The notes below the pieces were generated by a model. It was not told the DNA's origin. It searched no databases and was given only the letters and a program-made list of their open reading frames with translations. The translations under genes were made by a program, and so were the position numbers. A stretch of DNA of 64,000 bases, taken from NCBI RefSeq assembly GCF_905237075.1, contig NW_026136706.1, forward strand, positions 24,847,935 to 24,911,934, written 5' to 3'. Source of the DNA: Dicentrarchus labrax (Eukaryota). This document shows, piece by piece, positions 1 through 64,000 of the stretch (positions within the stretch are counted from its first letter, which is position 1; every line of letters begins with the position of its first letter).

Positions 1-703
1 CTGTTAGCACATTAACATGAAATCACTTTTAAAAATGTTTTTATTAACTAATGGCATTTGCAAGAATCCACCAGGAACTGAATGGAAACAACCAATCAAA
101 GGCGAGAAAGATGGGTGATTGCTAAGTCTCATTCCCAGGTCATTAAATACATATCCTTTGGGACCCTGGGAATGAGACTCAATCAAATAGAGCGAAGCCT
201 GCGAGCTAGTTCAGGCAGTCAACTCAAGCTGCGCTGATATACACACATGACATGCCTTATTCCATAATCACCAACCAAGCGCACCCTTCCTATCTGGTGG
301 TCTATTTAAACTGCACAATTTCCCAGCCCCCCCTCTGCTCTGTTAATGCCGCTGTTGCCCTGCATCCGTATTGCTGCTGTTGCTAGTGATGGCAGTGCGA
401 CACTGAAGCTTCGATACATGCTTCGAACCCTGAACTACAATTCCATAGAACCACTTCTTCAAAGCTTGCTTTGGTGCGAAAAAAATCACGTGACAAATGA
501 CGTCCGAAGCAGCAACTGTTCCATTGCCTGAATGAATCAGCTGTCTGGTTCGCGGTCCAATCAGGTGATTCACTGCCCCAATTCTGACAGGTGACAGGTT
601 ACGACAGTTTTGAATTTGAGCACCATTAACACTTTATAACCGCTCTAAACAATGCACAATTTGTGGGTTGCTATCGTAGTTGGAGAGTTACTATTTTGAG
701 TTA

Positions 704-799
704 TTGCGTTTGTATTGTTCATTACGTCTGTATTGATTCATTGTGTTTGTATTGATTCATTGCGTTTGTATTGATTCGTTGCGTTTGTATTGATTCATT
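704..799. repeat. Minisatellite of about 5 tandem copies of a 19-21-bp unit (gcgtttgtattgattcatt), ending exactly at the ATG of the hAT-like exon 1
   Basis: Direct reading: cattacgtctgtattgattcatt / gtgtttgtattgattcatt / gcgtttgtattgattcgtt / gcgtttgtattgattcatt, followed by ATG at 800. Confidence 0.8.
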
Positions 800-868
800 A
801 TGGAGCCAGCCAGGAAGAGAGGTCGTTCTAACATGTGGGAACACTTCAATTTGGTCAATCCTGATAAG
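800..868 (+). CDS. hAT/BED-type transposase-like gene, exon 1 (MEPARKRGRSNMWEHFNLVNPDK), ending at a canonical GTAGGT donor
   Basis: ATG at 800-802, open frame to 868, then gtaggtgtg at 869. The W-E-H-F motif is typical of the N-terminal part of BED fingers in hAT transposases and ZBED proteins. Confidence 0.6.
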
Positions 869-1057
869 GTAGGTGTGCTGTTTAATATGTAAAGTAGGAA
901 AAGTAAAGTTACATATACAACAGAAACTACCAGTACAGTACTATAGCTATGCTCCATCTCAAGTTTATATTTAGTAGCAACACACTAAAATAATGTATAT
1001 GATTAGTGTAGCCATTAGGCTATAGACATTTTTATTTACAAATGGCTTTCTCTACAG

Positions 1058-1172
1058 GTCCAGTGCTTGGTGTGTTCAGCTGAACTGAAGTATCGCGGCA
1101 ATACTTCCTCCATGATAAGGCACTTCACTGCCAAGCATGGAGCTGCTGTGAACCAGGGCAACACAAATCAAG
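1058..1172 (+). CDS. hAT/BED transposase-like gene, exon 2 (VQCLVCSAELKYRGNTSSMIRHFTAKHGAAVNQGNTNQ), the Cys2-His2 core of a BED zinc finger
   Basis: Acceptor tctacAG at 1056-1057 and donor GTATGC at 1173. C-x2-C ... H-x4-H spacing (CLVC ... HFTAKH) matches the BED finger. The frame is continuous with exon 1 (phase 0) and leaves phase 1 for exon 3. Confidence 0.6.
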
Positions 1173-1294
1173 GTATGCATTATATCATTATTAACTAGAC
1201 ACACTAACACAATATGATATGACTGTATTCCATGACTCATAGACCTGCTTCATAGAAATGCAATTTCACATAAATCCTTATTTTCTCTTATTCA

Positions 1295-1297
1295 TTT

Positions 1298-1333
<36 letters not shown>
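1295..1333. repeat. (TTTC)n microsatellite forming the polypyrimidine tract of intron 2
   Basis: ttctttctttctttc... repeated about 10 times, immediately before the AG acceptor at 1334-1335. Confidence 0.9.
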
Positions 1334-1335
1334 AG

Positions 1336-1640
1336 TGGACCGAAAGCGAGAGGTAGATGAAGCTCTTGTCAATATTGTGGTGAAAGACTCGCAGCCTTTT
1401 TCCATCGTGGATGACTGTGGCTTTAAGGAGTTTGTGGCATTGCTTGATCCCACATATAGTCTTCCATCCCGACGGGCTCTGAAGAACATGGTGGTTCAGA
1501 GGTATGAGGTGGAGAAAACCAAGACCAAGGCTGTAATTCAAAGGGTAGAGGCTGTGAGCCTGACTGCGGATATGTGGACCTCCATTAATATAGACGCATA
1601 TCTAGCAGTGATATGCCATTATCTGGATGAGTCTGTGTAA
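1336..1640 (+). CDS. hAT transposase-like gene, exon 3, encoding the N-terminal core region with the hallmark LTADMWTS motif; TAA stop at 1638-1640 (truncated relative to a full hAT transposase)
   Basis: Acceptor tttcttAG at 1334-1335 after a (TTTC)n polypyrimidine tract. The split codon g|tg is completed from exon 2. Translation: VDRKREVDEALVNIVVKDSQPFSIVDDCGFKEFVALLDPTYSLPSRRALKNMVVQRYEVEKTKTKAVIQRVEAVSLTADMWTSINIDAYLAVICHYLDESV*. The architecture resembles the equivalent region of Tol2 transposase (recalled from memory). No further hAT-like coding sequence follows. Confidence 0.6.
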
Positions 1641-1861
1641 TTAAAAGCATCATGTCCATCAACTAGCCTGCCTAATTTGACTGCAGCCTTGCACTTTGCC
1701 AGAAGAGGTCACTGTAACTGAAGCTTCGAGTAATGAACCCATTTTCGAAACAATTATCAGTGCTTCACAAAAGCTTCATTTGCCCATCACTAGCTGTTGC
1801 TCTGTAAGCTATTGCTGCCTGCTGCGCTGTAAGCCCCACCACCACCCCAGCATCCACCTGT

Positions 1862-3545: not shown

Positions 3546-3939
3546 CCGTAACTTCTTGGTGTCCACATAGAAATACAAAACATTCACACAGAATGTACAG
3601 GAGCCATCCACACTTAATCACATACACCTCTGACCTAAAACACATACCCACCCAGTCCCCCTCATACCTACACAGAATACCCGCAACAGCAGCAACAACA
3701 ATGATAACTAATAAACAGATATAATGTCAGTCTCTCAATCTTCTAGTCCAGTTATGATTAGCTTAATAAGAAGAACAATCATTCATTGATGTCAAACAAA
3801 GGAACCGACATAACAGCTAAGAACAAGGACAGCAAAGCTGAACAAAAAAAGGTGAGACAGGACTATTATGTTTACATGTGAAGAAATATCTTTCATACAA
3901 ACATGAAGCACAAAGTGCTTCACATAGCAAACAACACAT

Positions 3940-4330
3940 AAAAATAATATGAAGGCAGTGAGTTCCACAGTTTAGTTTAGGCATAAAAACAGAAGGCATT
4001 CTCACCAGTCCTTTATGGGACATAAGGAACATTAAAAAGAAAAGTGGTGGAGGACCTCAGTGATCTAGCTGGAACATAAAATGAAAGAAAGTCTCCAATG
4101 TATGGTGGAGCAAGGTCATTTAAAACTTTATAAACAATTAAAAGAACTCTAAAATCAATTCTGAAAGATACAGGCAGCCAGTGCAATGTCTTCAGCAGAG
4201 GTGTGATGTGGTTCATTTTCCTAGTTTTAGTTAAGACTCTGGCCGCTACTAGCTCTAGCTTTCTTATAGACTTTTAAGGTAATCCCATTAAAAGAGAACT
4301 ACAATAATCTAAACAGAAAAAAATCAGAAT
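3940..4330 (-). mobile_element. 3' end of a non-LTR retrotransposon (L2/CR1-like LINE tail). The minus-strand ORF carries the conserved LHWLPV..RIDF.VLL.VYK.LN.LAP.Y...L..Y.P.R.LRS motif
   Basis: The ORF at 4013-4216 (-) translates to ...LKTLHWLPVSFRIDFRVLLIVYKVLNDLAPPYIGDFLSFYVPARSLRSS..., a motif I recognise from the C-terminal region of fish LINE ORF2. The flanking sequence matches a widespread fish repeat (ggccagtgcaatg...gttttagttaagactc). Confidence 0.5.
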
Positions 4331-26440: not shown

Positions 26441-29400
26441 TATTTGAGGTCAGGGGGATATAAGGTTGAGGCTCTGAACCAGTTCTCAAACATCAACAAA
26501 CATTTACATGAAGTACACCCTGACCCCATCTAGCACACCTGTGCAGCTGCTTTTTAGTTTAGGAGGTTTGGTGCTCACCCCCAGAAGGAACAGACTGTCT
26601 GATCAGAGTTCTGAGAAGCTTCTGCTAGTGAGATACAGTCATTGTTTTACTTCTGAACATCATCACCTTGTCAGGGCAGAAATAACAAAGCAAGAAGCTG
26701 GACGCGAGTGTAAATGGCGCTAAGTGACTAAGTTATGTAAAGCCATTAAATACTCATTGCTGTGCCTATGAATGAATATGCAGAAAACATTAGTTAATAA
26801 GTCCTGTAGAGACTAGAGCTTTTTTTAAAATTTTCATTCAGTGTGCAAAGTTTTCTGTTTTGTAAAACCATTAAATACTGCTGCTCTTTCATGCAGAAGA
26901 ATATTAGTTAAAAAGTCGGGACTGGCTTTATTTTCTGTATTTACGCCAATGGCTTTAACCAATGTTTCCTGTTTTGTAAAACCACTTAATGCTGCTGGCT
27001 ATTCTTATTAATGATAATAATTATTTATTTCAGCCAGTGCCATTAAGAAACATTCTATGTTTTGTAAAACCATTAATTACTCCCTGCTCTTATGAATATT
27101 CAGAAACATATTAGTTAAAAAGTCAGGACAGACTTAAGTAAGTTTTTACAATTCCTGAGTCACTTGCCCAACACTGGTCGTGAAGTAGCGTGGGATCATG
27201 GGAGTTGTTGTCTTCACCACCATTACCATCATGGCAGTCAGCTTCTCTCAGTTAGGGTTACCTAGTCAGTGTTTGTTGTTCAGGAGGTTTTTACTGGGAT
27301 CTGAAACAAAACAAACAGACATACTGATTTAAACCGGGGAAAGAAACTGAATGAAGCAGCTCCACCAAAAAAGTGTTTCTCCAGTGTGTTGAGCAGACAA
27401 AGGACGTCCCGGAGGAGTTCTGAGTCGAGCTGCTGCTAACTTTAGCTCAGCTTGTTTCTCTGATAATTTAAGATCCAGGCATCGAAAAAAAATACTTCAT
27501 TCAACTAAAATATACAGTTCCAAATAACCAAGATAAATGTGGCATAAAAGTGGATACAAATTTATGAAACACTAAATAAAGGAATTCAGGGACGGAATTT
27601 AACACAACCTCACATGTTGAATTTGTATTATGTCTGTGGCTTCAACAGGAGGAGCAGCAGCTATAAGAGAACAGCTGTCCCTTTAAACTGAGGAAATGTT
27701 AATGTAGCAAATCTGACTTAAATGTGTCAGTGTGACTGAACAGCTGCTGATTCAACTAAATATCCTAAGTTGATTGAACTTGTTTTCATAAGTTCAGTGA
27801 ACTTGCCTCAGTTGGTTTTTACACTTTCAAAACTCGTAAGAAAACTCTGAAGTGACGATTTAACCTGAGTTCAGTTAACTCACAAATTTAGGGCAGCAGG
27901 GGAACTTCTCAGTTGAAGCAGCTTAAAATGACTTACAGTGCACAACAGTAAGGAGTTTGGAGTTAAGGGGAAAAGTTAACCTTTACTGACCCGTGGCAGC
28001 GGTTGGCAGCAGTGTGCTGTCACTTGGGATTTAAGCTTTATTCTCTTACTGGCTCAGAAAAACACTGTTAAACAAAAGAAAATACATTTAAGCGACATTC
28101 CTTCAACTATTTAACACCCATTTTCAAGTGTGCACTCTTCTGCACATTGTAGCCGAATTATTTTTAACAGTAGGTTTTCTTTTTGGTAAATGTCCGCAGT
28201 GACGGATAAGGTTGGAGGTCTCAGCTATCAATAAATGTATTACATGTTTAAATTCATGTAACTTTTTCTTGCAAAACCAGTTCATGTTACCATCCTGCAG
28301 GCAGAACAGTGGGTGGAAAAAGGGCTGCTATGTCCTTTCGCCCATGGTTTTGGTATTGTGCTGCGATTGTTGAGCAGCGAAGCGGCACAGGAGGAGGGTG
28401 ATCAGCTGCGTGCTGCCCAGGAGGAGCTGCTGACCCCTGAGTCAACCTCATCTGTTTTCCCCCATGGACCAACACTGCAGGAGCTCGGAGCAGGCTGCTG
28501 CTGCCGAGCTGCTGTCCATGTATCACCAACAAGATCTGCTTACTGCAGCCCGCAGCACTCCACACATCACACTATAAAGAAGGCTGGGGGAAACAGCTAC
28601 TGTGTCATGTACACCTGTAAGATACGGTCAGTCAGGTTAAGGGAAAAAAAAAAGAAACTTGAGATGATAAAAAAAACTAATAGGAAAAAAACCCCTCAAA
28701 GCTTGTAGTTAAAGCGTAGCTGGGATTTTATTAAACTCCTGACACCATGAATAGTAAGTACGCAGTGCACTGATTTCAGTCATAGATTACACCTGCTTCT
28801 TCACTGTGTGTATGTGCAAAAGAGTGCAAGACTACAGGTTTTCATTTCTCTAAGAAAATAACCAGCCAACATATGAAAAATGATTCTCCCTGGATAATAT
28901 TTTCATAAGAAAAAGGCCCATATTTTTATCATGAATCTGAGAAGGTGCATTATTTATAACAATATACTGTTTCAAATGATGATCACTCAGTAAAATGGTG
29001 CTCATAACGCTCTCATCCTCGCTAGATCAACCTGACACGACAAAATGAACAGTACAATGCGACTGTAGTGGTTAATGTTCTGTGGATGTTTGTGAAGATA
29101 TTATTTGACCTTTAAAGGCTCATGCATGAGTCAGTTTTGGATCCTCTCCATTCTCAGTCCTCTTTTCCAGTAGCGACGCAGAAGAGCAAGCTCAGCAGAC
29201 AGCGGAGAGGGATGAAGAAAGAAGAGAGAGGTGGAAAAGTCATTAACAGAAAATTGATCAGGTCTGGTTCTACCCAGAGCTAATGCCAATATTCTTCCAA
29301 GGCTGATGTCTTTGCTAACACCAAAACAAGTAATCAGAGGCTCTATCACACACACTACATGAGTCTACCACAGCCCACTAATGATTTTGTTTACATCCAT

Positions 29401-40134: not shown

Positions 40135-42939
40135 GTTATTGCCACTGCACATAATCCAGACACCAATCATGTTGCACTCAAAATGTATTTGGGAATACAA
40201 ATTAGCAGTAAATAAACAATTTCTAGGAGTCATGGTTGCTTTCATACACTATTTGAATTTTTCCTCAGATGTTATTCCCCAATTTATAGGCCCATTAAAA
40301 ACATACACCTTGCCGCTTGCTTTATTTTCTGTTGGCTTTACTTGATTGGAAGCAGTGGTCCTTCAACTGCGGATCCTCTAAACAAGCAAGCAGCTGCTCT
40401 TCTGGGCCAGCCACTTCAAGGTGCAGCTGCTTGAAAGCCTCTTCAGATAAAGGAAAAATCTGTCACAGTGAATATCTTTGATCTGATAGGTTTGATCCCT
40501 AATCATACGTTTTTTTTTTATATTAATATTGAATTATTGTCATTATACAACACTGATTGCATCAGAACACTAAAATTAGTAGTTTCAGTTGTTTATGTTT
40601 GTTTTAATAAATGCAGATTACAGTCATATCTTGGTGCATGGTCATGGTTTTCAGTGTTACAAATTCATCAAGGCCTTTGTGGTCACTTGAGACAGCGTCA
40701 TAATATTGCCACCACTGGTCACACCTTAATGATCTAAGTGCTTCTGAAGGCCTCAGTACCTCACTGCTCATCCGTCAGCATTCACCATCAGGCTGTGACA
40801 GCTCAGCAGTAATGGTGTAGCCTTTCTATTTTGAAGGTCGCTTACCAGTTTAAAGTGACAAGGGAAAGCGAAGGGCCTGTGTGTCATTCCGGGCCAATAC
40901 CAGTTTGACATCTGCTTCCCTTGACGTTCAATCACTGTGATTTTCTGTTTCCCACTCAGGCTCTGTGATTCTGCAGCCCAGCTCTGCTCAGGCAGGTGGG
41001 AAGTGATGAATGTGGCTCAGGCTCCGGCAGGTGGAGAATGATGAATGGCAACAATCACACCTGACCATCAGTGGAGGTGGCACAAAGCAGCAACACAAAG
41101 AAAATGATTATCAGAGGACTTCTGTTCAATCAGTGACTTCTTACTTGGCACTACCCATGCTGTGTCTCCAAATAGCCGGATCAATAGGTCAACAGTTATT
41201 TAATTTTGAATGCTCAAATATATAAATTGAGGGAACATTTTAGTAGTTTTGGCCCAAAGACTGGATACTGAAAAAAAGTGAAAAGTTGTTTTAGACCATC
41301 AGAATCACATATAATCACCCAGTCACATGATGAAATCCCCTCACTTCTAACTGACACACCATGGATTCACTCCTTATACTTGAATGAAATTCTAGGGTCT
41401 TTATGGGCACTGACAGGAATTAAGGAAGTGAAGGTTTTGAACTTAATTCAAACTGCGCTGTACACATCAGAGACAAGCACTCCATGATCTCTAACCTCTC
41501 TAATTCATTCGTTTTCTTAGCTGTAACCATGATTGTGCGTATTTTCCTGGCGGTGCCCTAGAGATAAAGCTTTCAAGAGAATTTTAAAATGCTTAACACA
41601 AAGTTCTGCATTAATTTTATTCAACAGGAAAGTTATTTAGTCTTTAAAACATTTACTTTGACGGGCCGCCGGTATATTAACAGGGACATATTTTAGTATT
41701 TTGCAGAGAAACAGACGGAGAGAGAGAGACGTTATCTGGTGGATGTTTTACAAGCACAGAGAAGGTAAAGCAACAGTTTTGTTTTCGATAGGTTCACCTG
41801 CTGCTGTGAACACGGAATTGCGGGTGAAAGGATTCAAAACGTGGGTTGTGTTTCTTGGGCTACTACTATAAAACTTTGTGCTGACCAAAGTAACAGCAGA
41901 CACACACACAGCCTGTATATGGAGAGGGAAGCAGAAAGAGGTGAGTGGGTCAGCTGGTGTGTGTGAGACAGAGGTGTAGGTGTTGTTGTTAAGAATGGTA
42001 AAGAAAAGTAAATAAATAAATAAAGCTACACTATAAAGATAAGGTTTTAAATAGACCCAGTGATTGTTATCGGCTGATACTGCTTCTAGTGATCGGCCTC
42101 AAAAACCCTGATCGGAGCACTCATAATAATTTTGGCCAGATGGTGCCACTGAAGAAAGATCACGTTGTTTGTGGTTGAATAGATAAAGATAGATAGTTTT
42201 TCTTTGGTAAAGATGAAATTTTGACGAGATTCTGGACCTACACAGGTCAAAAAGTCAGCAAATCCTCAGGTTTCGGTCTCTGGGGTCCATGAATTTTCAC
42301 AGCAAATTAAATGACAGTTTGCTTAGTAGTGGCTGAGATATCTTGCTCTCAGCCAGTGCTCCTTGAGCCTTGAAAATTCTGTATTACTTCTTCTGCTATT
42401 TCAAGCCAGCAACATGCAAATGTGTCCTCTAAAGCTTTAAGCGTTATTACAGATTGCAGAGCCTCTTGATCTCAAAAAGTGAAGAGTATTTATCTCTTCC
42501 AGTTACTGTTTAAAATTCCACAGTGTTGTCTCAATCCTCACCAACCTGAGACTTGCAGCAGGAGAACTGGCAGGACTCTGTTGGCCATATCTGTCTGGCA
42601 TGCAAAGCAATGAGTTAATTCCAAGGCTAATATTTTCAAGATTTCAGACTGAAATCAGTTCAATGGCAGGATACTTTTAGTGAATCTAAAGCATGTGCTT
42701 TAAAACTCCCTCTTGCATAGTAATTAAAAATAGTGAGATGTTAATGGTAATTGATGGAAAAATAAGTAGCTTACCGTGCATTTTCCCATTCCCTCTGTAG
42801 AATGAAATGGCCTGGTCTCAGCAGCCTAAGTTACAGCAAAATCTACAAGTGATGGATTTAGCCCAAAGCCACTGAGAATTAAAGTGTGGCTTTTTAGGGA
42901 AACCACAGAAATCTTGGACCATAAGAATATGTGATCGAT

Positions 42940-44295: not shown

Positions 44296-44420
44296 ACAAT
44301 ATTAACCAGTGGTGGAAAGAGTACTGAAAATCTGTACTCAAGTAGAAGTAGGCTACAGTTACTTTACTGAAATATTACTCTGCTAGAAGTAAAACTACTG
44401 ATGTTATCCCAAATGACTTA
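44296..44420 (+). mobile_element. hAT-like transposon terminus (CAGTGGTGGAAAGAGTACTGAAAATCTGTACTCAAGTAGAAGTAG...) with AAGTAC/GTACT subterminal motifs. No partner end was identified
   Basis: A CAGTGGTG start and repeated (a)gtact(c)aagta motifs resemble hAT/Tol2-type ends. The other end was not found. Confidence 0.35.
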
Positions 44421-46539
44421 CTAGTAATTACTAGAGGTGAGCGAGCACACCGTTATCTGTATCTTTTCAACCAACTACATTATCTGTGTTTGTATTCGTA
44501 CTCGGATGGGTGGGGCTTAAAGCAGACATAGGTGGGGCTTAAATTGGAAGTGGGTGGGGCAACCGAGACACCAAAGTTGCTATATTTATTTGAAAACTAT
44601 AGAACAGCCTCAGAATTGAGTTTTAGCTACCTGGTCTTAAGTGGGTGTATTTCAGAATCAGAGTCAGAATCAGAAATACTTTATTGTTCCTGGGGGGAAC
44701 CTGGTTAAATTAAAGTTTCACATTTTCTTTTAAGCCTTTTGTTTTTGTGTTGGAGATGACAGGTGGTCTAAACAGACAGAAATAAGTGCAATTTCATGCC
44801 AAAATGAGCACGAAAGTCACACTGTGCCATCTGATTGGAATAAACACATTCTCGCTGACTGCATTCCACCCACCCAAGCGGGAGTTTGGAGCCAGGAAAT
44901 TGAGCACTAACATTGCAACAGTGTTTGTGCTACAGCTGATAATGCGCTGGCATCAACATTGTACCCAAAAGGTTTCAGTTTTACTTACATCTATCTATCT
45001 GTTGCCACACTGCATGAGGAGGTAACACCTCTCTTGATTACTCTTTGGTTAGTGTTCGACAATTGTAGCAGCAACATTTACTATTTGAATAAACACACGC
45101 ACAACACCACATTCTAATCAGATCAACTGCCTACTACAGCAAAATGATAGCAAATAACACAGGGACATAACTGCTGAACTGCTGCTAGGATTGGCTTTCA
45201 CGTGTTTGGTGTATGAGGCATAAGGGATTTCTGATTTTTCTCTTTTATGAACCAATTATACGAAATGGAATAAAACATTCCTGAAGTAGGCCTGTGGTCC
45301 CACAGGCTCAGACAATACATTTCAGAATGAAAAAACACCTTCTCTCCAATGAATGACTTGAAGCTAACACAGCAATTACAGTAGAGTTTCAGCAGAATTT
45401 GCCTCGTTGTATACAGGGACTACAGGATTGCTGTTTCTTGCTAAAATGCTATTACATTTTGTGCTCAGCTAATGCAACTTTCAGTGTTCAGCTCAGGTTC
45501 GGTGTGCTACATGATATGATACATGAGCTCAGTAGCCCGGCTGGAGGTTTTTGGAGGTTATTGGAGTTTCAGCTCTGATGATACACCGCTCTCATTGTAC
45601 TCTTAGATATGCAGCACTCTGAGATAGAAACGGAGAGCTCTTCTGCAGTTAGCAAGTCTTACAATCTATCAGCTTTGCAACTTTTTAATAACATTTCCTA
45701 CACTGCAAGATGTGCAGTATTGGATAATGTACCACTAGCTTTATCCATAAGAGGATGATTAAAACCTGCTGCCAGGGGCTGATAGCATTAGCCACTATGA
45801 TAAATGACCATCACATCTATCAACCTTATTGTCAGAAAAAGAGAAAATGTTTAGTGATGTGATTAGTGTGGCTGAGGGAGGAGGAGGAGGAGACAATGCA
45901 GGAGGACATCAGGGGGCTTCATTAGCATCATTAGCAGAGATCACTCTCGAAGGTCATTTTTTGAACATTGCATCTGCAATTCAGAATAGCCAGATTTGTT
46001 CATGCTGACCTTCCCTTCATCGTCTTCACACCACTAAGTCCCATTGATCTGAGATGTTGCAGTTAGTCGTGTCTCAGAAAGTACTGTCAGTTTACTGTGC
46101 TTTAATGATGATCCTCTCGTCGCATATTGCAGACACTTCACTTGAAAATGCCAGATTGGCTTTCTAATGATGAACAAGCCATGCAAAGACCTTTGGCATT
46201 ACATTTCTACTTCAGATAAAGTTTTCTTATAACACAAGAATGATGAATGCCCACCTGCCATCTGAAGGAAATGTATTGAAAGAAATGAAAATAGCATCAA
46301 ACCTTGTTTGACTGCCGCCTGCCTGTGCCAGTTTCTTTAACAGTAGCTAATCACATCAACAGCAGGGTGACATATACAGTATATATAGTCCTATAGTTAA
46401 CAGCAATAAATTATTACAGCCTTTAACTTCAAAACAAGAGAAGACAAGACAGTCCAACAGTCTGCCCTGCTTCCTGCAGTCTGTGGCCAGGTGTAAAAAG
46501 GTTTGAAAACGGGTGAATCTCAAAGTGCTCTGCAAATGA

Positions 46540-50300: not shown

Positions 50301-52689
50301 ACAAAGCTGATAGTTGCCCCCTCTGACTGCTGACATTTCACCATTACCTTTCCTGGTGAACTGGTATGTTTTTAATGTGTTAAAACGTTGAGTTCAGGGA
50401 AGACTTCAATATTTTCTACCACTCAGTGCTCTCTACCTCCCCTGCTTGCATGTGTCGCTTCTACGCTACATCACAAACAAAAAGCTATTATTTCACTGGA
50501 TGCACTTTGAAAGGTCAGCGGCAACTAAAGTCAAAGTTGAAATAATTTGAACTTTGAGCACGCTCGGTGGGCATTTTGGACAATGCACCTCCGCCTAGTT
50601 TGGCATCACCGCTGTCCCCGTTGGAAAACAATGGCACGGCCAGTGCAGAGTGGTTTAACTGCTGATCAAGTGTTGCAGACTTTATTCATCAAACGTTTTC
50701 AGCTATCTTGCCTTCAGGGTAACTTTGTTAGCATTCTAATGATTTGAGTAATGAAACCGTTTGAGTAAACGGTTTCACTTGCTACCATTCTAATTTGCAC
50801 AGAACACTCAGTTGCCTATGCTGAGGCTGATAGGAATGTTTGGCAGGTATGCAAAAGTATTAGACACATTTACCTACATGGTCTGGAAACCATAAATATC
50901 TGTACCACACCTCAAGGCAAGGCATCCAGCAGTTGTCAGTTTATTCAGTCTGGACGTTGGACTAAGTAGGCTAACCGACCATCATTGCCATCCCTAGACC
51001 AACGCTACCGGTGTGGCTAACAGTGCATTCTGTCCTTCGTGTTTATGGATGAGTAACCAATGTGTGACTTGACGTCTGTCATTTGAAGGGTTGCTGGTTC
51101 CTGTTATGAACATATGCTGTTCTCTACGCTATCACATGAGAATGTTAATATTCTGCACATGGAATTCCATCAACTCTTCTCATTTAGAAACTCCTTTGTT
51201 GAGTCAGGGGGAATTGATTATCATTAACTCAATGGAGAGGACCAGACTGGCACCACCACTTGCATGCACTTATTGGCTGATTGTATTGACACTCTGATGC
51301 GGAGATGAGGTGGCTGATTTGAAGTCAGAGTTTGTTCTGTCAATTGCCAATGTTGCTATACGTGTCTGAGAGACTGTTTGGGATTAAATGGTGAACAGGC
51401 ATTAATTATCCTGGTACTGTTCTTTCGTGTCTTTTAAGCCTATACTGGTGGGGAACCATGTGGTGAAGGGACACTTAGATAAATCAGTCAATCAAAAAAT
51501 CTTGTGCTTTGGGAGGAGCTGATGGCTAAGTCAGTAATCTGAGCATGGAAAGAAACAGGCACTCTTTAGCAGTGCTGCACAGCACTTTCACATAGCCTCC
51601 AGTATGTGTTTAATATAATTTAACAAAATTTAATGCAAACCTAGGGGGGATGATACACTGCTATAGACTGACCGTACTACCTCTAAGTAGGGCCCCATGA
51701 AGTCCATCAAGTCCATCAATCACTTTTACACTGATTATGCATGTGACGTTCCTTAAAGTCTGCGATGGTTCAATGCTTAGGGCTTAAAGCAGACATGAGC
51801 TGTAGACTTATGATAGCAGCAGCTCTCTTCAATCAGAAACCTATTTTAGAGCCCATACAAGTTTTGTTCATAAGCCCTGGCTCGCTTATAAACCTACAGT
51901 AGATATAGTGAAATGAAAAAGTCAAATTTAACTCAGTGGTTTGTTCGCTGTTAAAATCAAAACGGAAAAACCCAAAGTGAGTGTCCAAATATTTCTGCAT
52001 CCATCACTACTCAAATGTCGTCATGTATGGAATGCTTCTCAAACTGCCCCTAAAGGTGCAATCTGTTCCACATGCACAATTCTGAAACAACAACCAGCTC
52101 ATGTTTTGACAGTTTTGACAATGAAGATTATTGTACCTGTTGCTCATGTTAATTACAGCATGCTCTTTTCCGTCTGCCTCTGCAAAGCAGCTTGAAATGA
52201 GGCTCTGCTCTGCATGGTGAGGGGGGATTTGCAGTAATTGGCTCCCTGAGAGTTGTGTAAAGATGGCAGCTGAACATGTGCTTCGCCCGCTTGGCTCCAT
52301 TAGTGTAATGGTCCATTTGTACCTGTGATGTGCTGAGGTGAGCACAGGCAAGGTATATGGAACATAACTTTTTTGTCTTGTAGGCAACAACCCTCCATCC
52401 CACTGCTGTCATCAAGGGCTCATGTTGTACTTGTTTGGCAAATAGTGAACGGTAGGGAGAGAAGGCAGACTGATGATAAGGACATTCTGTCAGAGGTGTA
52501 GGCCGGTGGAAATACAACAGTCTAGCATAACAACAAAATGACCTACCAAGAATTTAGTCAGCAGTGATGTTTTCCCCAAGAGGCCAAAATTAGTCTCCTG
52601 TTATTCAGGCTGCTTCCAATAAAAAGATCAAACAACTTTCTTTTTTGATTACCTTTACTGCATTCATCGTGGCCATCTCTTCCCCAGAG

Positions 52690-53000
52690 ATGGATACTGC
52701 AGAAGGCATAGTGTCAAAGTGAATGGAAATCTCTTGATTAGTATTATCAATACAAACCTGGACTGGTCTCATAACACTGACACCCTGTTCAGGAAGGCAC
52801 AGAGCACACTGTTCTCCCTGAGGAGACTCCTTCAGTGTGCGATCCTGCAGGTCTCTAGTGGCCAGTGCTCTGTTCTGTGATGTGTGCCGTGGGTGGTGGC
52901 TCAAGAGGCCAGCAGAGTCACCAAGCTGCTTAAGAAGTCTAGCTCTGTGGTCATTGAAGCCATCCTGGATAACCCCCTCTCACCCTCTTCATGACGAGCT
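52690..53000 (+). mobile_element. Degenerate 3' fragment of a fish LINE (ORF2 C-terminal region: ...IINTNLDWSHNTDTLFRKAQSTLFSLRRL...AILDNPLSPSS...)
   Basis: DNA and protein similarity to a teleost LINE 3' region that I recall (…YIDNKLDWAKNTEAVYRKGQSRLYFLRRL…TILDNVSHPLHDTLV…). Stops and frameshifts are present. Confidence 0.45.
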
Positions 53001-53094
53001 GCGGCATTTTTATTATATATTATAAAATACTATATTGTATCAAACTATTATATTGTACTAATATAGGCGTAAATATGCTCATACTGGTGGTAAT

Positions 53095-53215
53095 AGCTTA
53101 GTCTGTAGGGACTTGGCTTGTGCCCTTGAGCAAGGCACCCAACCCCTAACTACTGGCGGAGCACCCCTACATGAAGAGTGAAAAAAGAATTTCCCCATTG
53201 GGGATTAATAAAGTA
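53095..53215 (+). mobile_element. SINE fragment of the 'gtgcccttgagcaaggcacccaacccctaactactg' family
   Basis: Conserved 'cccttgagcaaggcac..aacccc' core. A related minus-strand copy lies at 56395-56535. Confidence 0.45.
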
Positions 53216-54361
53216 TATCTTCTTCTTCTATACATTATTATACTACATCCTGTCATAATGTATTATGTTGTATGTTAAGACTTGATGAAAGCATTGTAAT
53301 TCAAAATAAACAACCAGCAGTTTCCAGTTATTGCATCTTCCATTATTGCAAATTATATTGGAAAACCACCGTGGATTTTGGTGAGAAAATACAGCTTAAA
53401 ATGACTGAATGAGAAAAGAATTTGACAGTGCCACATTAGGTCGGGTAGAAAAAGCGGACAAGTCAGCATACATGCACCGGAGAGAGGTGGACACCAAGTC
53501 TGTGGCGGAAGAACTCAAGTTGGAGCTTTTAGGATTAGGTTGTTGAACACTTCTTCAAACACCATTTGGTGAGATAAACAATCCAATCCTCGCACTCGCT
53601 CTGTGGCTTGATGGCAAATTGGTTCCCATCTGTACAAACATAGTATGAACATGACATTAATGTGCAATGCTTGATGAGATTATGTTTGTAATGGGGAAAA
53701 TGTAATGTACCTTGTTGCCTGAATGTAGCTGTTTGTGCTGTATTATAGTCTGGGCTACTGGAGTATGTCATTTTATGGTCTCCACATACAGACATTCAGC
53801 GCCATGGACGGAGCCAGCTAGGGCTTGGAGCAAATTGAACTATTTTCTTTCAATTTCACATTTATAAGTTGCCATTTTTTGTCAGGTGTGATTTGTGGTT
53901 GTTTGTAGATGTGCAGAACTCTGAAACTGTTTCATCTCTGCTTTGACTTCTAGTCATGCTGTAAAACGAACGAATCTTAATAATTTGTTTTAATTTGATT
54001 GGTTTATGAGTTTATTTTATTGACAAAGCATGTTAATGAACATCAGTGTAAAAGTAAAGATGTAAACATGCTGGAGTTAGCAGGAATGCTAATTTACATT
54101 CATAGTCCCTAGGCAGGTAATGTAAACATTACTAATGACAATACAGAAATGCATGTATAATACAAAGCAGTTAAATGTAATCTGATATTCCTTAAGCCAT
54201 TTAGATATGTAGGGCAAGTGGGAGGCCATCCTAATATTTACTTCCCTTTACTGACAGTGCAATTTGTCCAAATGTGTTTCACACATGATGTAGCAGCTTA
54301 CAAGGGAACCAATTAGCTTTAATATATAAGACAGACAGTTGTCATGTTACTATATGCTATG

Positions 54362-61815: not shown

Positions 61816-63120
61816 CATAGTGTTGGGCTACCACAAATTGTATCACAGGTGTTGAGTTAGCTATGTGTTACCAATTAATGTGGTATAACCGTTGGTAAGA
61901 AGGGTACGCAGTTAAAAAGGGCTCATACAGCAGCTTGCCCTGACCGTCTACGCACCAGTATGGTGGTATAAAAAATTCATATCATACGGTAAATGAAGAC
62001 CAGTATAGATGAGAGCAGCCACACGTCACTTTCTTGTCTTCAGAATGACCACAGCCCCTTTTGGGTGAAACAAGCGCTGTAAAGGTGGTCTGATGCCTAA
62101 ATATGTGTTGCATTTTGCACAGTTACTTAACTAATCAACGAAGGACAATAGAATAAAAGATATGTGGCTTTGTTTAGGCAATCAACAAAGAGGATAAAAA
62201 TGTTAAACTGTGTTAACTGTGGGACCCGGACAGTCAGTATGTGGCACTTCATCACAGGTTAGTTAATAGTGTTACTGAGTAAATGACATGAATTATTATA
62301 ACTGTAGATTGAAGAGAACAAGTTAAGAGTCTTAGTGATGGTGTAAATAAAGTTTTTACTGTGAAAAATATGGCCCTACCAGGTTAGACAGTGTGGAGCA
62401 GAGGGTATTTTAACCTTAATAATTCACATGAACTGAGCTGACCTTCCCTCTAATAATGAACCTTGTAAACAGCAGAGTAATGTAGGAAATGGAGATAAAA
62501 CCCACCTGTTTTCTTCTTCTTTTGGCTCATAGTAAAAGATCTATTAATAAACAGAAACAGTTGTTCTGCTTCGCCACAGATATACAATTAGTTTACAGTA
62601 CTGTCGCATTGGACAGACGACCAAAATAGATAAATAAATGACAGAAGAAGTGTCAGATGTCAGAAATATGAGATTTAATAATGTAGTTGTATATGTCAGG
62701 TTCATCCAATTAGATGGGGTCAGACTGAAAGGACTGAATCAACCCATGTTTCTTTATCTCTTCTATATAACAACGCCGATCATTGATCGACAGTGACATA
62801 TCAGGATTGTTTGCCTGGTTGGCCATAGGGTTTTGGCTCCTAATAGCAAAAAAACAATACAGTATTCTTATTTAATGGTATTAAATTGGCAAAGACCTCA
62901 GAATTAACATTCACCCCCAGTCATATTAGAGGGGCGGCTTTCACCCAAAAGGGGTTGGGGGTTGGATGCGAGGCCAAAGTACCAGGACAGACTGCTCTCG
63001 TCTATACCGGTTCATCCGGATATCAGCCAGCACTAAGATGAATACAAGTTAGTCTTGAGTTGAGTTTGTCACACTGCTATTTTCATTCAACATTTACGTT
63101 CAATACTGAGCTTTTATTTG

Positions 63121-63671
63121 CAGAGGTGGGAAGTAACAAAGTACAAATACTTAGTTACTCTTTAAACGTTTTTATGACAAAATGTTCTTGCTACAATGTA
63201 TAATTAAATGGGTTTTTGTGTGTGTAATTTCTATTCTCTTTTAACCCATGTGGTTGATGTGTGGAAATACACTATTAGTCTGTATTATTTGTAAACTCTT
63301 TGGTTATATTTTTTTGGCATGTATGAAATTGGCATGCACTTGTTTTGTTGGTTTTACCTGGTTAATTAAAAATGAAAATAAAAATACTTTCAGGTATCTA
63401 TAGTTAACTTGACTCTTAATTTTTCTCACAACTCCTACTTTTACTCACTACATTTTTACACAAATATCTGTACTTTCTACTCCTTCCTCTACTCAAAGAC
63501 CGGTCCATATCACGCACAGACCTAACAAGATGTATAAGACACAATGACATAACATGACAAAACAGACTAGACTTTTTTCGCTCGTATTTGAGTAAAGAAG
63601 CTGAATCAGTACTTCTACTTTTATTTACCTTCTACTTTTATTGGAGAACAAGTGTACTTTTGCCACCTCTG
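63121..63671. mobile_element. Tol2-like non-autonomous hAT element (551 bp) with terminal inverted repeats CAGAGGTGG... and a perfect 8-bp target-site duplication TTTATTTG (63113-63120 and 63672-63679)
   Basis: The 5' end is cagaggtgggaagtaacaaagtacaaatactt. The reverse complement of the 3' end is cagaggtggcaaaagtacacttg. Internal AAGTAC/GTACTT subterminal repeats are present. Flanks: ...gagctTTTATTTG|cagagg ... cctctg|TTTATTTGctg. Tol2 ends are CAGAGGTGTAAAGTACTTGAG... and ...GTACTTTTTACACCTCTG, recalled from memory. Confidence 0.75.
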
Positions 63672-64000
63672 TTTATTTGCTGTTAGCTGTGTTGCTATAA
63701 TGAGCAAAAAATAATAATTTCCATTCTACACAGCTGCAGCAGTAGCCTTTACCCGTTATCTCGTGCTGTATGTACAGTAAAACATGTGTCAAAGTCTTAA
63801 AAACATTTTTAACTACTAATCACTAAACTAGGTCAGGTAAAGTTATCTCTGAGGTTTTGATCAATGTTTTTGCATCATTACAGCCTACATGTATGAATGT
63901 CCCATGAGATCATTCTGGTGGGTGAATTCAGGAGAAAAAACTAAAAACTACAACAACAGGCTATTTCCAAGACACTTCTCTTTGTGACAGGATTAAAAAA

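What the first reader, a model, noticed from the sequence alone, without database searches (positions are those of the whole stretch)
63113..63679. Tol2-like non-autonomous hAT element with an intact 8-bp TSD, a signature of a clean insertion
The termini CAGAGGTGG...AAGTAC... and ...GTACTTTTGCCACCTCTG closely resemble the Tol2 ends (CAGAGGTGTAAAGTACTT... and ...GTACTTTTTACACCTCTG). The 8-bp direct duplication TTTATTTG on both flanks is perfect, as expected for hAT integration. Together with the intron-containing transposase fragment at 800-1640, this suggests that a Tol2-group family is, or recently was, active in this genome. Tol2-group elements outside medaka are sparsely documented.
Basis: partly seen in the sequence, partly recalled or inferred. 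Interest (0 to 1): 0.6.

Follow-up and report, generated by a model that had tools for sequence, protein, structure and literature searches.

The report
Non-autonomous Tol2-clade hAT transposon copy
This is a 551-bp non-coding "hitch-hiker" copy of a fish DNA transposon related to Tol2, flanked by the 8-bp duplication made at insertion; it is real but an ordinary kind of repeat in teleost genomes.

Summary
Window 63121-63671 is a 551-bp element with CAGAGGTGG...CCACCTCTG termini, flanked by a perfect 8-bp duplication (TTTATTTG).

It is not a chance arrangement. An exact search for its right end found at least 120 fish-derived metagenome contigs. About 100 of them carry copies of a ~550-bp family with the same ends, and 13 of 18 full copies keep a recognisable 8-bp duplication.

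The ends of the element match the ends of autonomous 3.6-4.5 kb elements in other teleosts (Melanotaenia, Knipowitschia, Acanthochromis). Those elements encode transposases 52-54% identical to Tol2/Tgf2. So it is a non-autonomous deletion derivative of a Tol2-clade hAT element, moved in trans.

- The "transposase fragment" at 800-1640 belongs to a different hAT element (384-1792, TAGTGATGG ends, its own TSD). Its full-length relatives are only 20-28% identical to Tol2-clade proteins.
- A perfect TSD does not show recent activity. Copies 12-14% diverged from their consensus also keep one.
- Tol2-clade elements are widespread in fishes, not sparsely documented.

There is no second copy in the window, and the source genome could not be searched. 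This is a new member of a known kind and of low interest.

The parts
63113..63120 (.). Left copy of the 8-bp target-site duplication, TTTATTTG
   Evidence: Read directly; direct repeat D9.
63121..63137 (+). Left terminal inverted repeat, CAGAGGTGGGAAGTAAC
   Evidence: All 17 nt are identical to the left ends of the autonomous M. boesemani and K. caucasica elements.
63121..63160 (+). Left subterminal region, including a short palindrome (AGTAACAAAGTA / TACTTAGTTACT)
   Evidence: Matches family model positions 1-40. It is 37/38 identical to the 19-copy consensus and 84.6% identical to M. boesemani element positions 1-39.
63161..63387 (+). Copy- or lineage-specific segment of about 227 bp, with no counterpart in the family consensus or in the autonomous elements. 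It replaces about 16 bp of the consensus. It is bounded by a 15-nt imperfect direct repeat (63138-63152 and 63375-63389).
   Evidence: Alignments; repeat D4. Its origin is unknown. Filler DNA or a nested insertion is my inference.
63388..63485 (+). Internal segment homologous to the 5' subterminal region of the autonomous elements
   Evidence: 81.8% identity over 99 nt to M. boesemani element positions 55-153, E 2e-22. Matches family model positions 55-143. This is the only part of the window hit repeatedly by the metagenome copies.
63486..63583 (+). Short central segment without a detectable homologue. It takes the place of about 310 nt of the family model.
63584..63671 (+). Right subterminal region with repeated CTTCTACTTTTATT and GAGTAAAG motifs
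   Evidence: Matches family model positions 455-559, E 4e-14. Window element positions 465-503 are 87% identical to M. boesemani element positions 4238-4276. Repeats D1 and D2.
63654..63671 (-). Right terminal inverted repeat, GTACTTTTGCCACCTCTG (reverse complement CAGAGGTGGCAAAAGTAC)
   Evidence: Exact matches in at least 120 metagenome contigs. It is 2 nt longer than the left TIR, the same asymmetry as in Tol2.
63672..63679 (.). Right copy of the 8-bp target-site duplication, TTTATTTG
   Evidence: Read directly; D9.

Best explanation
Window 63121-63671 is one copy of a non-autonomous (MITE-like) DNA transposon of the hAT superfamily. It belongs to the Tol2 clade, in a sub-lineage whose autonomous members are seen in Melanotaenia boesemani, Knipowitschia caucasica and Acanthochromis polyacanthus.

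It keeps only the cis-acting parts of its parent:
- the terminal inverted repeats (CAGAGGTGG...);
- about 40 plus 100 bp of the 5' subterminal region;
- about 90 bp of the 3' subterminal region, rich in (A/G)AGTA motifs.

It has lost the transposase gene. Inferred mechanism: a Tol2-like transposase made by an autonomous copy elsewhere binds the subterminal motifs and TIRs, cuts the element out, and inserts it at a staggered 8-bp cut. Repair of that cut produced the TTTATTTG duplication.

Shown here: the TIRs, the TSD, the absence of transposase coding sequence, homology of the ends to autonomous elements, and a multi-copy family with 8-bp TSDs. Inferred: mobilisation in trans, and the time of insertion, which is unknown.
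For: 1. The TIR and a perfect 8-bp TSD are present and are rare by chance.
2. The exact 18-nt right end occurs in at least 120 metagenome contigs, mostly GenBank MDSP01/MDSQ01. A 559-nt model built from five of them finds copies in about 100 loci, 19 of them full length at 474-588 bp.
3. Of 18 full copies with both flanks, 13 have 3 or fewer mismatches between the 8-nt flanks. My binomial estimate of the chance rate is about 3% per copy.
4. The window copy matches that model at both ends and at one internal block. Its first 38 nt are 37/38 identical to the consensus and its last 20 nt are identical.
5. The family model matches both ends of autonomous elements: M. boesemani, 4,348 bp, E 2e-38 and 3e-28; K. 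caucasica, 3,565 bp; A. polyacanthus, 4,468 bp. The left ends share CAGAGGTGGGAAGTAAC exactly.
6. These elements encode 643-665-aa proteins that are 52-54% identical to Tgf2/Tol2 over their full length and 62-75% identical to each other. They are flanked by perfect 8-bp TSDs.
7. The right TIR is 2 nt longer than the left, as in Tol2, which has 17- and 19-bp TIRs.
8. (A/G)AGTA occurs 15 times in the element against 5.4 +/- 2.1 in shuffles (0 of 500 shuffles reach 15). That is 27 per kb against 3.8 per kb in the whole window.
9. tblastn with 120 Tol2-clade proteins finds nothing inside the element.
Against: - No second copy lies in the 64-kb window.
- The source genome could not be searched, so copy number, age and the presence of an autonomous partner in this genome are unknown.
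- The related copies come from another, unidentified fish. They share only the ends and one block with this copy (75-95% identity).
- 227 bp (63161-63387) and the central 98 bp have no known homologue.
Confidence: 0.93

Rival explanations
1. The family is active now, or was very recently, in the source genome, and this copy is a young insertion.
For: The TSD is perfect, and the termini are identical to the cross-species consensus over 38 nt (37/38) on the left and 20 nt on the right. Autonomous relatives with 99.9% identical copies, intact ORFs and perfect TSDs exist in three other teleosts, so the clade does include recently mobile members.
Against: A perfect 8-bp TSD dates an insertion poorly: 2 of 18 copies that are 12-14% diverged from their consensus keep one. 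No second copy and no Tol2-clade transposase lie in the window; the only tblastn hits are the unrelated fragment at 1353-1628 and a weak C-terminal remnant at 26502-26639. A second Tol2-clade-like end at 44307 is truncated and degenerate. In the one fish where many copies were seen, the family is old, with a median 11.9% divergence from its consensus.
Confidence: 0.2
2. The element is mobilised by, or derived from, the hAT family whose transposase fragment lies at 800-1640 of the same window.
For: Both are hAT elements with 8-bp TSDs in one window. The fragment has BED zinc-finger and Hermes-type DNA-binding domain matches.
Against: The fragment sits inside its own element (384-1792), with TAGTGATGG/CCATCACTA termini, GAAGCTTCGA-type subterminal repeats and TSD GCTGTTGC. 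None of these resembles CAGAGGTGG or the AAGTA motifs. The fragment is 23-37% identical to Tol2-clade proteins, which share 41-100% with Tol2 in that region. Full-length relatives of the fragment, such as P0153, are 20-28% identical to Tol2-clade proteins.
Confidence: 0.02
3. The inverted ends and flanking repeat are a chance arrangement in AT-rich sequence, or the region is a structured RNA gene and not a transposon.
For: The perfect TIR is only 9 nt long, the TSD is AT-rich, and there is no second copy in the window.
Against: There is a multi-copy family with the same ends and with TSDs, and the ends are homologous to those of autonomous elements. The shuffle control gives 0.03 such arrangements per window. 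No Rfam match at E <= 0.1. The folding energy is ordinary, z = -0.67.
Confidence: 0.01

Closest known systems
Tol2 of medaka (Oryzias latipes) and Tgf2 of goldfish; the 'Tol2 family' in the strict sense, which also includes cyprinid, Amia and lamprey (Tel2) elements
   Same: Both are hAT elements with 8-bp TSDs and termini beginning CAGAGGTG. The right TIR is 2 nt longer than the left, and the subterminal regions are full of AAGTA/TACTT motifs. The right end is 16/18 identical (CAGAGGTGGCAAAAGTAC against CAGAGGTGTAAAAAGTAC).
   Different: Nucleotide similarity to Tol2 was seen only at the published ends: 27/40 on the left and 22/27 on the right. The transposases of the nearest autonomous relatives are only 52-54% identical to Tol2/Tgf2, so this is a sister lineage and not Tol2 itself. 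This copy has no transposase gene and no ~300-bp internal inverted repeats. Tol2 copies in medaka are almost all autonomous and homogeneous, whereas this family is MITE-like and its copies are diverged.
Unnamed autonomous Tol2-clade elements: M. boesemani (4,348 bp, protein P0028 / LOC121655155), K. caucasica (3,565 bp, P0032), A. polyacanthus (4,468 bp, P0038)
   Same: The first 17 nt are identical (CAGAGGTGGGAAGTAAC) in the M. boesemani and K. caucasica elements, and 33-34 of the first 39-40 nt match in all three. The right end is GTACTTTT(G/A)(C/A)CACCTCTG, with GACACCTTTG in the A. polyacanthus element. Window block 63388-63485 is 82% identical to M. boesemani element positions 55-153. All have 8-bp TSDs.
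   Different: Those elements carry a four-exon-size transposase gene and are 3.6-4.5 kb long. The window element keeps only their ends, plus 227 bp of unknown origin. They come from other species, so none is shown to be the actual partner in the source genome.
Ac/Ds of maize, the paradigm for a hAT autonomous and non-autonomous pair
   Same: A deletion derivative keeps the TIRs and subterminal transposase-binding repeats and is moved in trans, making 8-bp TSDs (established knowledge, not tested here).
   Different: It belongs to a different hAT clade with different termini (CAGGGATGAAA in Ac, from memory) and is found in plants.
RepeatMasker/Dfam class DNA/hAT-Tol2
   Same: This is the class under which such an element would be filed. 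It is reported routinely in teleost genome papers, for example 751 kb in Anisarchus medius and in Osteoglossidae.
   Different: I could not query Dfam or Repbase, so I do not know whether this exact family already has a name.

Membership tests
hAT superfamily | 8-bp target-site duplication | tested here: met
   TTTATTTG on both flanks. 13 of 18 related copies keep a recognisable 8-bp TSD.
hAT superfamily | Short terminal inverted repeats of hAT type, (C/T)A(G/A)NG... | tested here: met
   CAGAGGTGG / CCACCTCTG: 9 nt perfect, 12 nt at 92%.
hAT superfamily | Autonomous relatives encode a hAT (BED finger, RNase-H-like, hAT C-terminal) transposase | tested here: met
   Elements with homologous ends encode P0028, P0032 and P0038. 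These carry PF27041 (ZBED1_RNase-like) and are 52-54% identical to Tol2/Tgf2 transposase. This was shown in other species only.
Tol2 clade of hAT (DNA/hAT-Tol2) | The transposase of the autonomous partner groups with Tol2 and not with other hAT lineages | tested here: met
   Partner-lineage proteins are 52-54% identical to Tgf2/Tol2 over about 635-650 aa. A non-Tol2 hAT protein (P0153) is 20-28% identical. No formal phylogeny was made.
Tol2 clade of hAT (DNA/hAT-Tol2) | Tol2-type termini (CAGAGGTG..., right TIR 2 nt longer than left) and AAGTA-rich subterminal repeats | tested here: met
   Compared with published Tol2 ends. Motif enrichment is 15 observed against 5.4 +/- 2.1 expected.
Tol2 clade of hAT (DNA/hAT-Tol2) | An autonomous partner is present in the same genome | not testable with these tools
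   The source genome is not available. None is present in the window.
Tol2 family in the strict sense (Tol2, Tgf2, Tel2; Iida et al. 2026 preprint) | Nucleotide-level similarity to Tol2 along the element, closer than host genes | tested here: inconclusive
   Only the published terminal ~50 nt of Tol2 were available. Identity there is 27/40 and 22/27. The partner proteins at 52-54% identity argue that this is a sister lineage and not a member.
Tol2 family in the strict sense (Tol2, Tgf2, Tel2; Iida et al. 2026 preprint) | 302/303-bp internal inverted repeats | tested here: not met
   The element has no long internal inverted repeat. This is expected for a 551-bp deletion derivative.
MITE (miniature inverted-repeat transposable element) | Small size, TIRs and TSD, no coding capacity | tested here: met
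   551 bp, with no transposase similarity.
MITE (miniature inverted-repeat transposable element) | High copy number in the host genome | not testable with these tools
   There is one copy in 64 kb. At least 100 related copies were found in contigs from another fish, but the source genome could not be searched.

The most novel reading that the evidence does not exclude
The source genome might carry an intact, currently mobile autonomous element of the M. boesemani / K. caucasica sub-lineage of the Tol2 clade. In that case this MITE would be a young, possibly polymorphic insertion. That would add another naturally active vertebrate hAT system, of use as a gene-transfer vector and as a case study for the horizontal-transfer history of Tol2 relatives.
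Probability: 0.15. Interest if true: 0.4.

Novelty: new member of a known kind. Interest (0 to 1): 0.15.

Why it matters
For this locus it matters little: it is a routine repeat annotation (class DNA/hAT-Tol2, non-autonomous).

The wider point is modest. The Tol2 clade is much broader than the few hosts discussed in the Tol2 literature. Several teleosts (Melanotaenia boesemani, Gadus chalcogrammus, Acanthochromis polyacanthus) carry multiple 99.9% identical autonomous copies with intact ORFs and perfect TSDs. Those copies, and not this MITE, would be the candidates for new active vertebrate transposon tools.

Tried and rejected
- **Second copy in the window.** blastn and pattern search found none. 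CAGAGGTG at 4196, 41969 and 52491 and CACCTCTG at 3625 are isolated chance matches. The CAGTGGTGGCAATA match at 40704-40717 has no AAGTA-rich neighbourhood and was dismissed.
- **Literature search for the exact termini.** No paper holds them. Urasaki et al. 2006 (PMC1602067), on Tol2 subterminal repeats, is not held.
- **Viral contigs.** There was one exact 17-mer match (L137). It shows no extended similarity and no transposase, so it is chance.
- **Empty-site search.** A reconstructed empty site found no paralogous or orthologous match in any DNA fetched.
- **Host of the MDSP01/MDSQ01 contigs.** The accession prefixes were not found in any paper. Those contigs share nothing with the window except this family, so they come from a different species.
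- **Source species.** It was not identified. The window's hAT ORF has no identical entry in the protein collection; the best match is 85%, from Larimichthys crocea. No clear host exon was seen among 208 stop-free segments (inspected by eye only).
- **RNA gene or hairpin reading.** No Rfam match, and the folding z-score is -0.67.
- **Other look-ups.** P0036 is not on record. For P0055 (L136) neither the TIR/TSD scan nor the family model found element ends. The N. celidotus element ends were found, but without a matching TSD.

Full report
**1. The observation**

The sequence is as described.
- TTTATTTG lies at 63113-63120 and again at 63672-63679.
- Between them is a 551-bp element (63121-63671). 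It starts CAGAGGTGGGAAGTAACAAAGTACAAATACTT and ends GTGTACTTTTGCCACCTCTG.
- The repeat finder reports the flanking repeat (D9) and the inverted ends (I14: 12 nt, 92% complementary, outer 9 nt perfect).

Chance is an unlikely explanation. The window is 38.8% G+C, so an 8/8 match at two fixed positions has a probability of about 2e-5 (my arithmetic). A 9-nt perfect TIR flanked by an 8-nt perfect direct repeat within 100-3000 bp occurred 0.03 times per shuffled window. In the real window, the only cases outside simple repeats are this element and a second hAT at 384-1792.

The window holds no second copy.

**2. It belongs to a multi-copy family that makes 8-bp TSDs**

Most are GenBank MDSP01/MDSQ01 contigs. 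Their content identifies them as fish host DNA.

A 559-nt profile built from five copies finds family members in about 100 of the 120 loci. Nineteen are full length, at 474-588 bp. Of the 18 with both flanks present, 13 have 3 or fewer mismatches between their 8-nt flanks, against a chance rate of about 3% per copy.

Those copies are old. They are 9.7-15.9% diverged from their consensus, median 11.9%.

The window copy matches the profile in three places:
- profile 1-40 at window 63121-63160;
- profile 55-143 at window 63388-63488;
- profile 455-559 at window 63584-63671.

Its first 38 nt are 37/38 identical to the consensus, and its last 20 nt are identical. Two parts have no homologue: 63161-63387 (about 227 bp, bounded by a 15-nt imperfect direct repeat, D4) and a short central part.

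**3. Its parents are Tol2-clade autonomous elements**

I queried with the Tol2 transposase written from memory. It proved 99% identical to a database goldfish protein (P0027, the Tgf2 cluster). The search returned 230 proteins. Many are full length and 50-56% identical, from dozens of teleosts, and also a turtle, a coral and a sea cucumber.

I fetched their loci and defined element boundaries from multi-copy alignments or from TIR/TSD pairs.

| Species (protein) | Size | Copies read | Left end | Right end | TSDs |
|---|---|---|---|---|---|
| M. boesemani (P0028) | 4,348 bp | 4 (99.95% identical); 7 loci encode the same protein | CAGAGGTGGGAAGTAACGAAGTATTTGTACTTCGTTACTGTACTTAAGTAG | GAGTACTTTTACCACCTCTG | perfect 8 bp |
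| K. caucasica (P0032) | 3,565 bp | 1 | CAGAGGTGGGAAGTAACGAAGTAC | GGTACTTTTGACACCTCTG | CCTACCAC |
| A. polyacanthus (P0038) | 4,468 bp | 1 | CAGAGCTGTCAAGTAACGAAGTACAAATACTTCGTTAC | not listed | CCAGCCGG |

More distant lineages are G. chalcogrammus (3,974 bp, 3 copies), A. polyacanthus P0029 (6,451 bp, 5 copies) and N. celidotus.

The match between the MITE family and these elements is as follows.
- The family profile matches both ends of the M. boesemani element (E 2e-38 and 3e-28), the K. caucasica element and the A. polyacanthus P0038 element.
- Window positions 63388-63485 are 82% identical to M. boesemani element positions 55-153 (E 2e-22).
- 33-34 of the first 39-40 nt of the window element match these three elements, against 27/40 for Tol2 itself.
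- The three proteins are 62-75% identical to each other and 52-54% identical to Tol2/Tgf2.

So the element derives from a sister sub-lineage of Tol2 within the Tol2 clade.

Two further Tol2 hallmarks are present. The right TIR is 2 nt longer than the left (CAGAGGTGG-CAAA-AGTAC against CAGAGGTGG-GA-AGTAAC), as in Tol2's 17- and 19-bp TIRs. And (A/G)AGTA motifs are enriched: 15 observed against 5.4 +/- 2.1 expected, 27 per kb against 3.8 per kb in the whole window.

No transposase similarity lies inside the element. It is not a known RNA, and it does not fold unusually (z = -0.67).

**4. How it most likely works**

It is a deletion derivative that keeps the TIRs and the subterminal binding regions of its parent. 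A Tol2-like transposase supplied in trans would excise it and reinsert it at a staggered 8-bp cut, which gave the TTTATTTG duplication.

The structure, the homology and the family behaviour are shown here. Trans-mobilisation follows from established knowledge of hAT elements (Ac/Ds, Tol2) and was not tested. The 227-bp extra segment may be filler DNA from abortive gap repair or a nested insertion; that is speculation.

**5.

(a) The transposase fragment at 800-1640 is not part of this system.
- It lies in a separate 1,409-bp hAT deletion derivative (384-1792) with TIR TAGTGATGG/CCATCACTA, GAAGCTTCGA-type subterminal repeats and a perfect TSD, GCTGTTGC.
- It carries BED and Hermes-type DNA-binding domain matches. 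Its closest relatives are annotated as ZBED1-like or AC transposase, at up to 85% identity.
- In this region it is 23-37% identical to 97 Tol2-clade proteins, which themselves share 41-100% identity with Tol2 there.
- Full-length relatives found by an exhaustive search, such as P0153 (610 aa), are 20-28% identical to Tol2-clade proteins.

(b) A perfect TSD is weak evidence of recent activity. Two of the 18 old copies, 12-14% diverged, keep one. Nothing else in the window speaks for activity. A second Tol2-clade-like end at 44307 is truncated.

(c) Tol2 relatives are not sparsely documented.
- The strict Tol2 family is described in Oryzias, Cypriniformes, Amia and lampreys.
- DNA/hAT-Tol2 is a routine class in fish genome papers.
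- The protein search shows the clade throughout teleosts.

**6. Limits**

- The source species was not identified, and its genome could not be searched. Copy number, age, polymorphism and the presence of an autonomous partner there are unknown.
Their host fish is unknown.
- I could not query Dfam or Repbase, so the family may already have a name.

**7. Verdict**

The feature is real and correctly recognised as a Tol2-like non-autonomous hAT element. It is an ordinary one: a new member of a known kind, of low interest. The link to the nearby transposase fragment is wrong, and the claim of recent activity is unsupported.

Noticed in passing
window 384-1792 (TSDs at 376-383 and 1793-1800): A 1,409-bp internally deleted hAT element of a different, Ac/ZBED1-like lineage. 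It has a perfect 9-nt TIR (TAGTGATGG/CCATCACTA), a perfect 8-bp TSD (GCTGTTGC) and GAAGCTTCGA-type subterminal repeats. It keeps only the N-terminal BED and DNA-binding part of the transposase (about 800-1640), interrupted by a (TTTC)n microsatellite and by insertions.
   Followed up: yes
window 44307-44440 (+): The left end of another Tol2-clade-like element: CAGTGGTGGAAAGAGTACTGAAAATCTGTACTCAAGTAGAAGTAG... It matches the MITE family profile weakly (E 8e-5) and appears truncated. No partner end was found.
   Followed up: partly
L126-L129 (M. boesemani), L130-L132 (G. chalcogrammus), L001-L005 (A. polyacanthus): Autonomous Tol2-clade elements of 4.35, 3.97 and 6.45 kb, each present as several 99.9% identical copies with intact 643-656-aa ORFs and perfect 8-bp TSDs. 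This suggests very recent or ongoing transposition in three teleosts that the Tol2-family survey I read does not list as hosts.
   Followed up: partly
window 26502-26639: A weak remnant of a hAT C-terminal dimerisation domain, 38% identical over 47 aa to P0131.
   Followed up: no
window 63138-63152 and 63375-63389: A 15-nt imperfect direct repeat (AAAGTACAAATACTT / AAAATAAAAATACTT) brackets the 227-bp segment that is absent from all related copies. This could mark a microhomology-mediated filler insertion.
   Followed up: no
window 4013-4216 (-) and about 52000-53500: Stop-free segments that, by eye, look like tails of non-LTR retrotransposon ORFs (for example ...HWLPVSFRIDFRVLLIVYKVL...). The window appears to be repeat-rich intergenic or intronic teleost DNA, with many microsatellites.
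   Followed up: no
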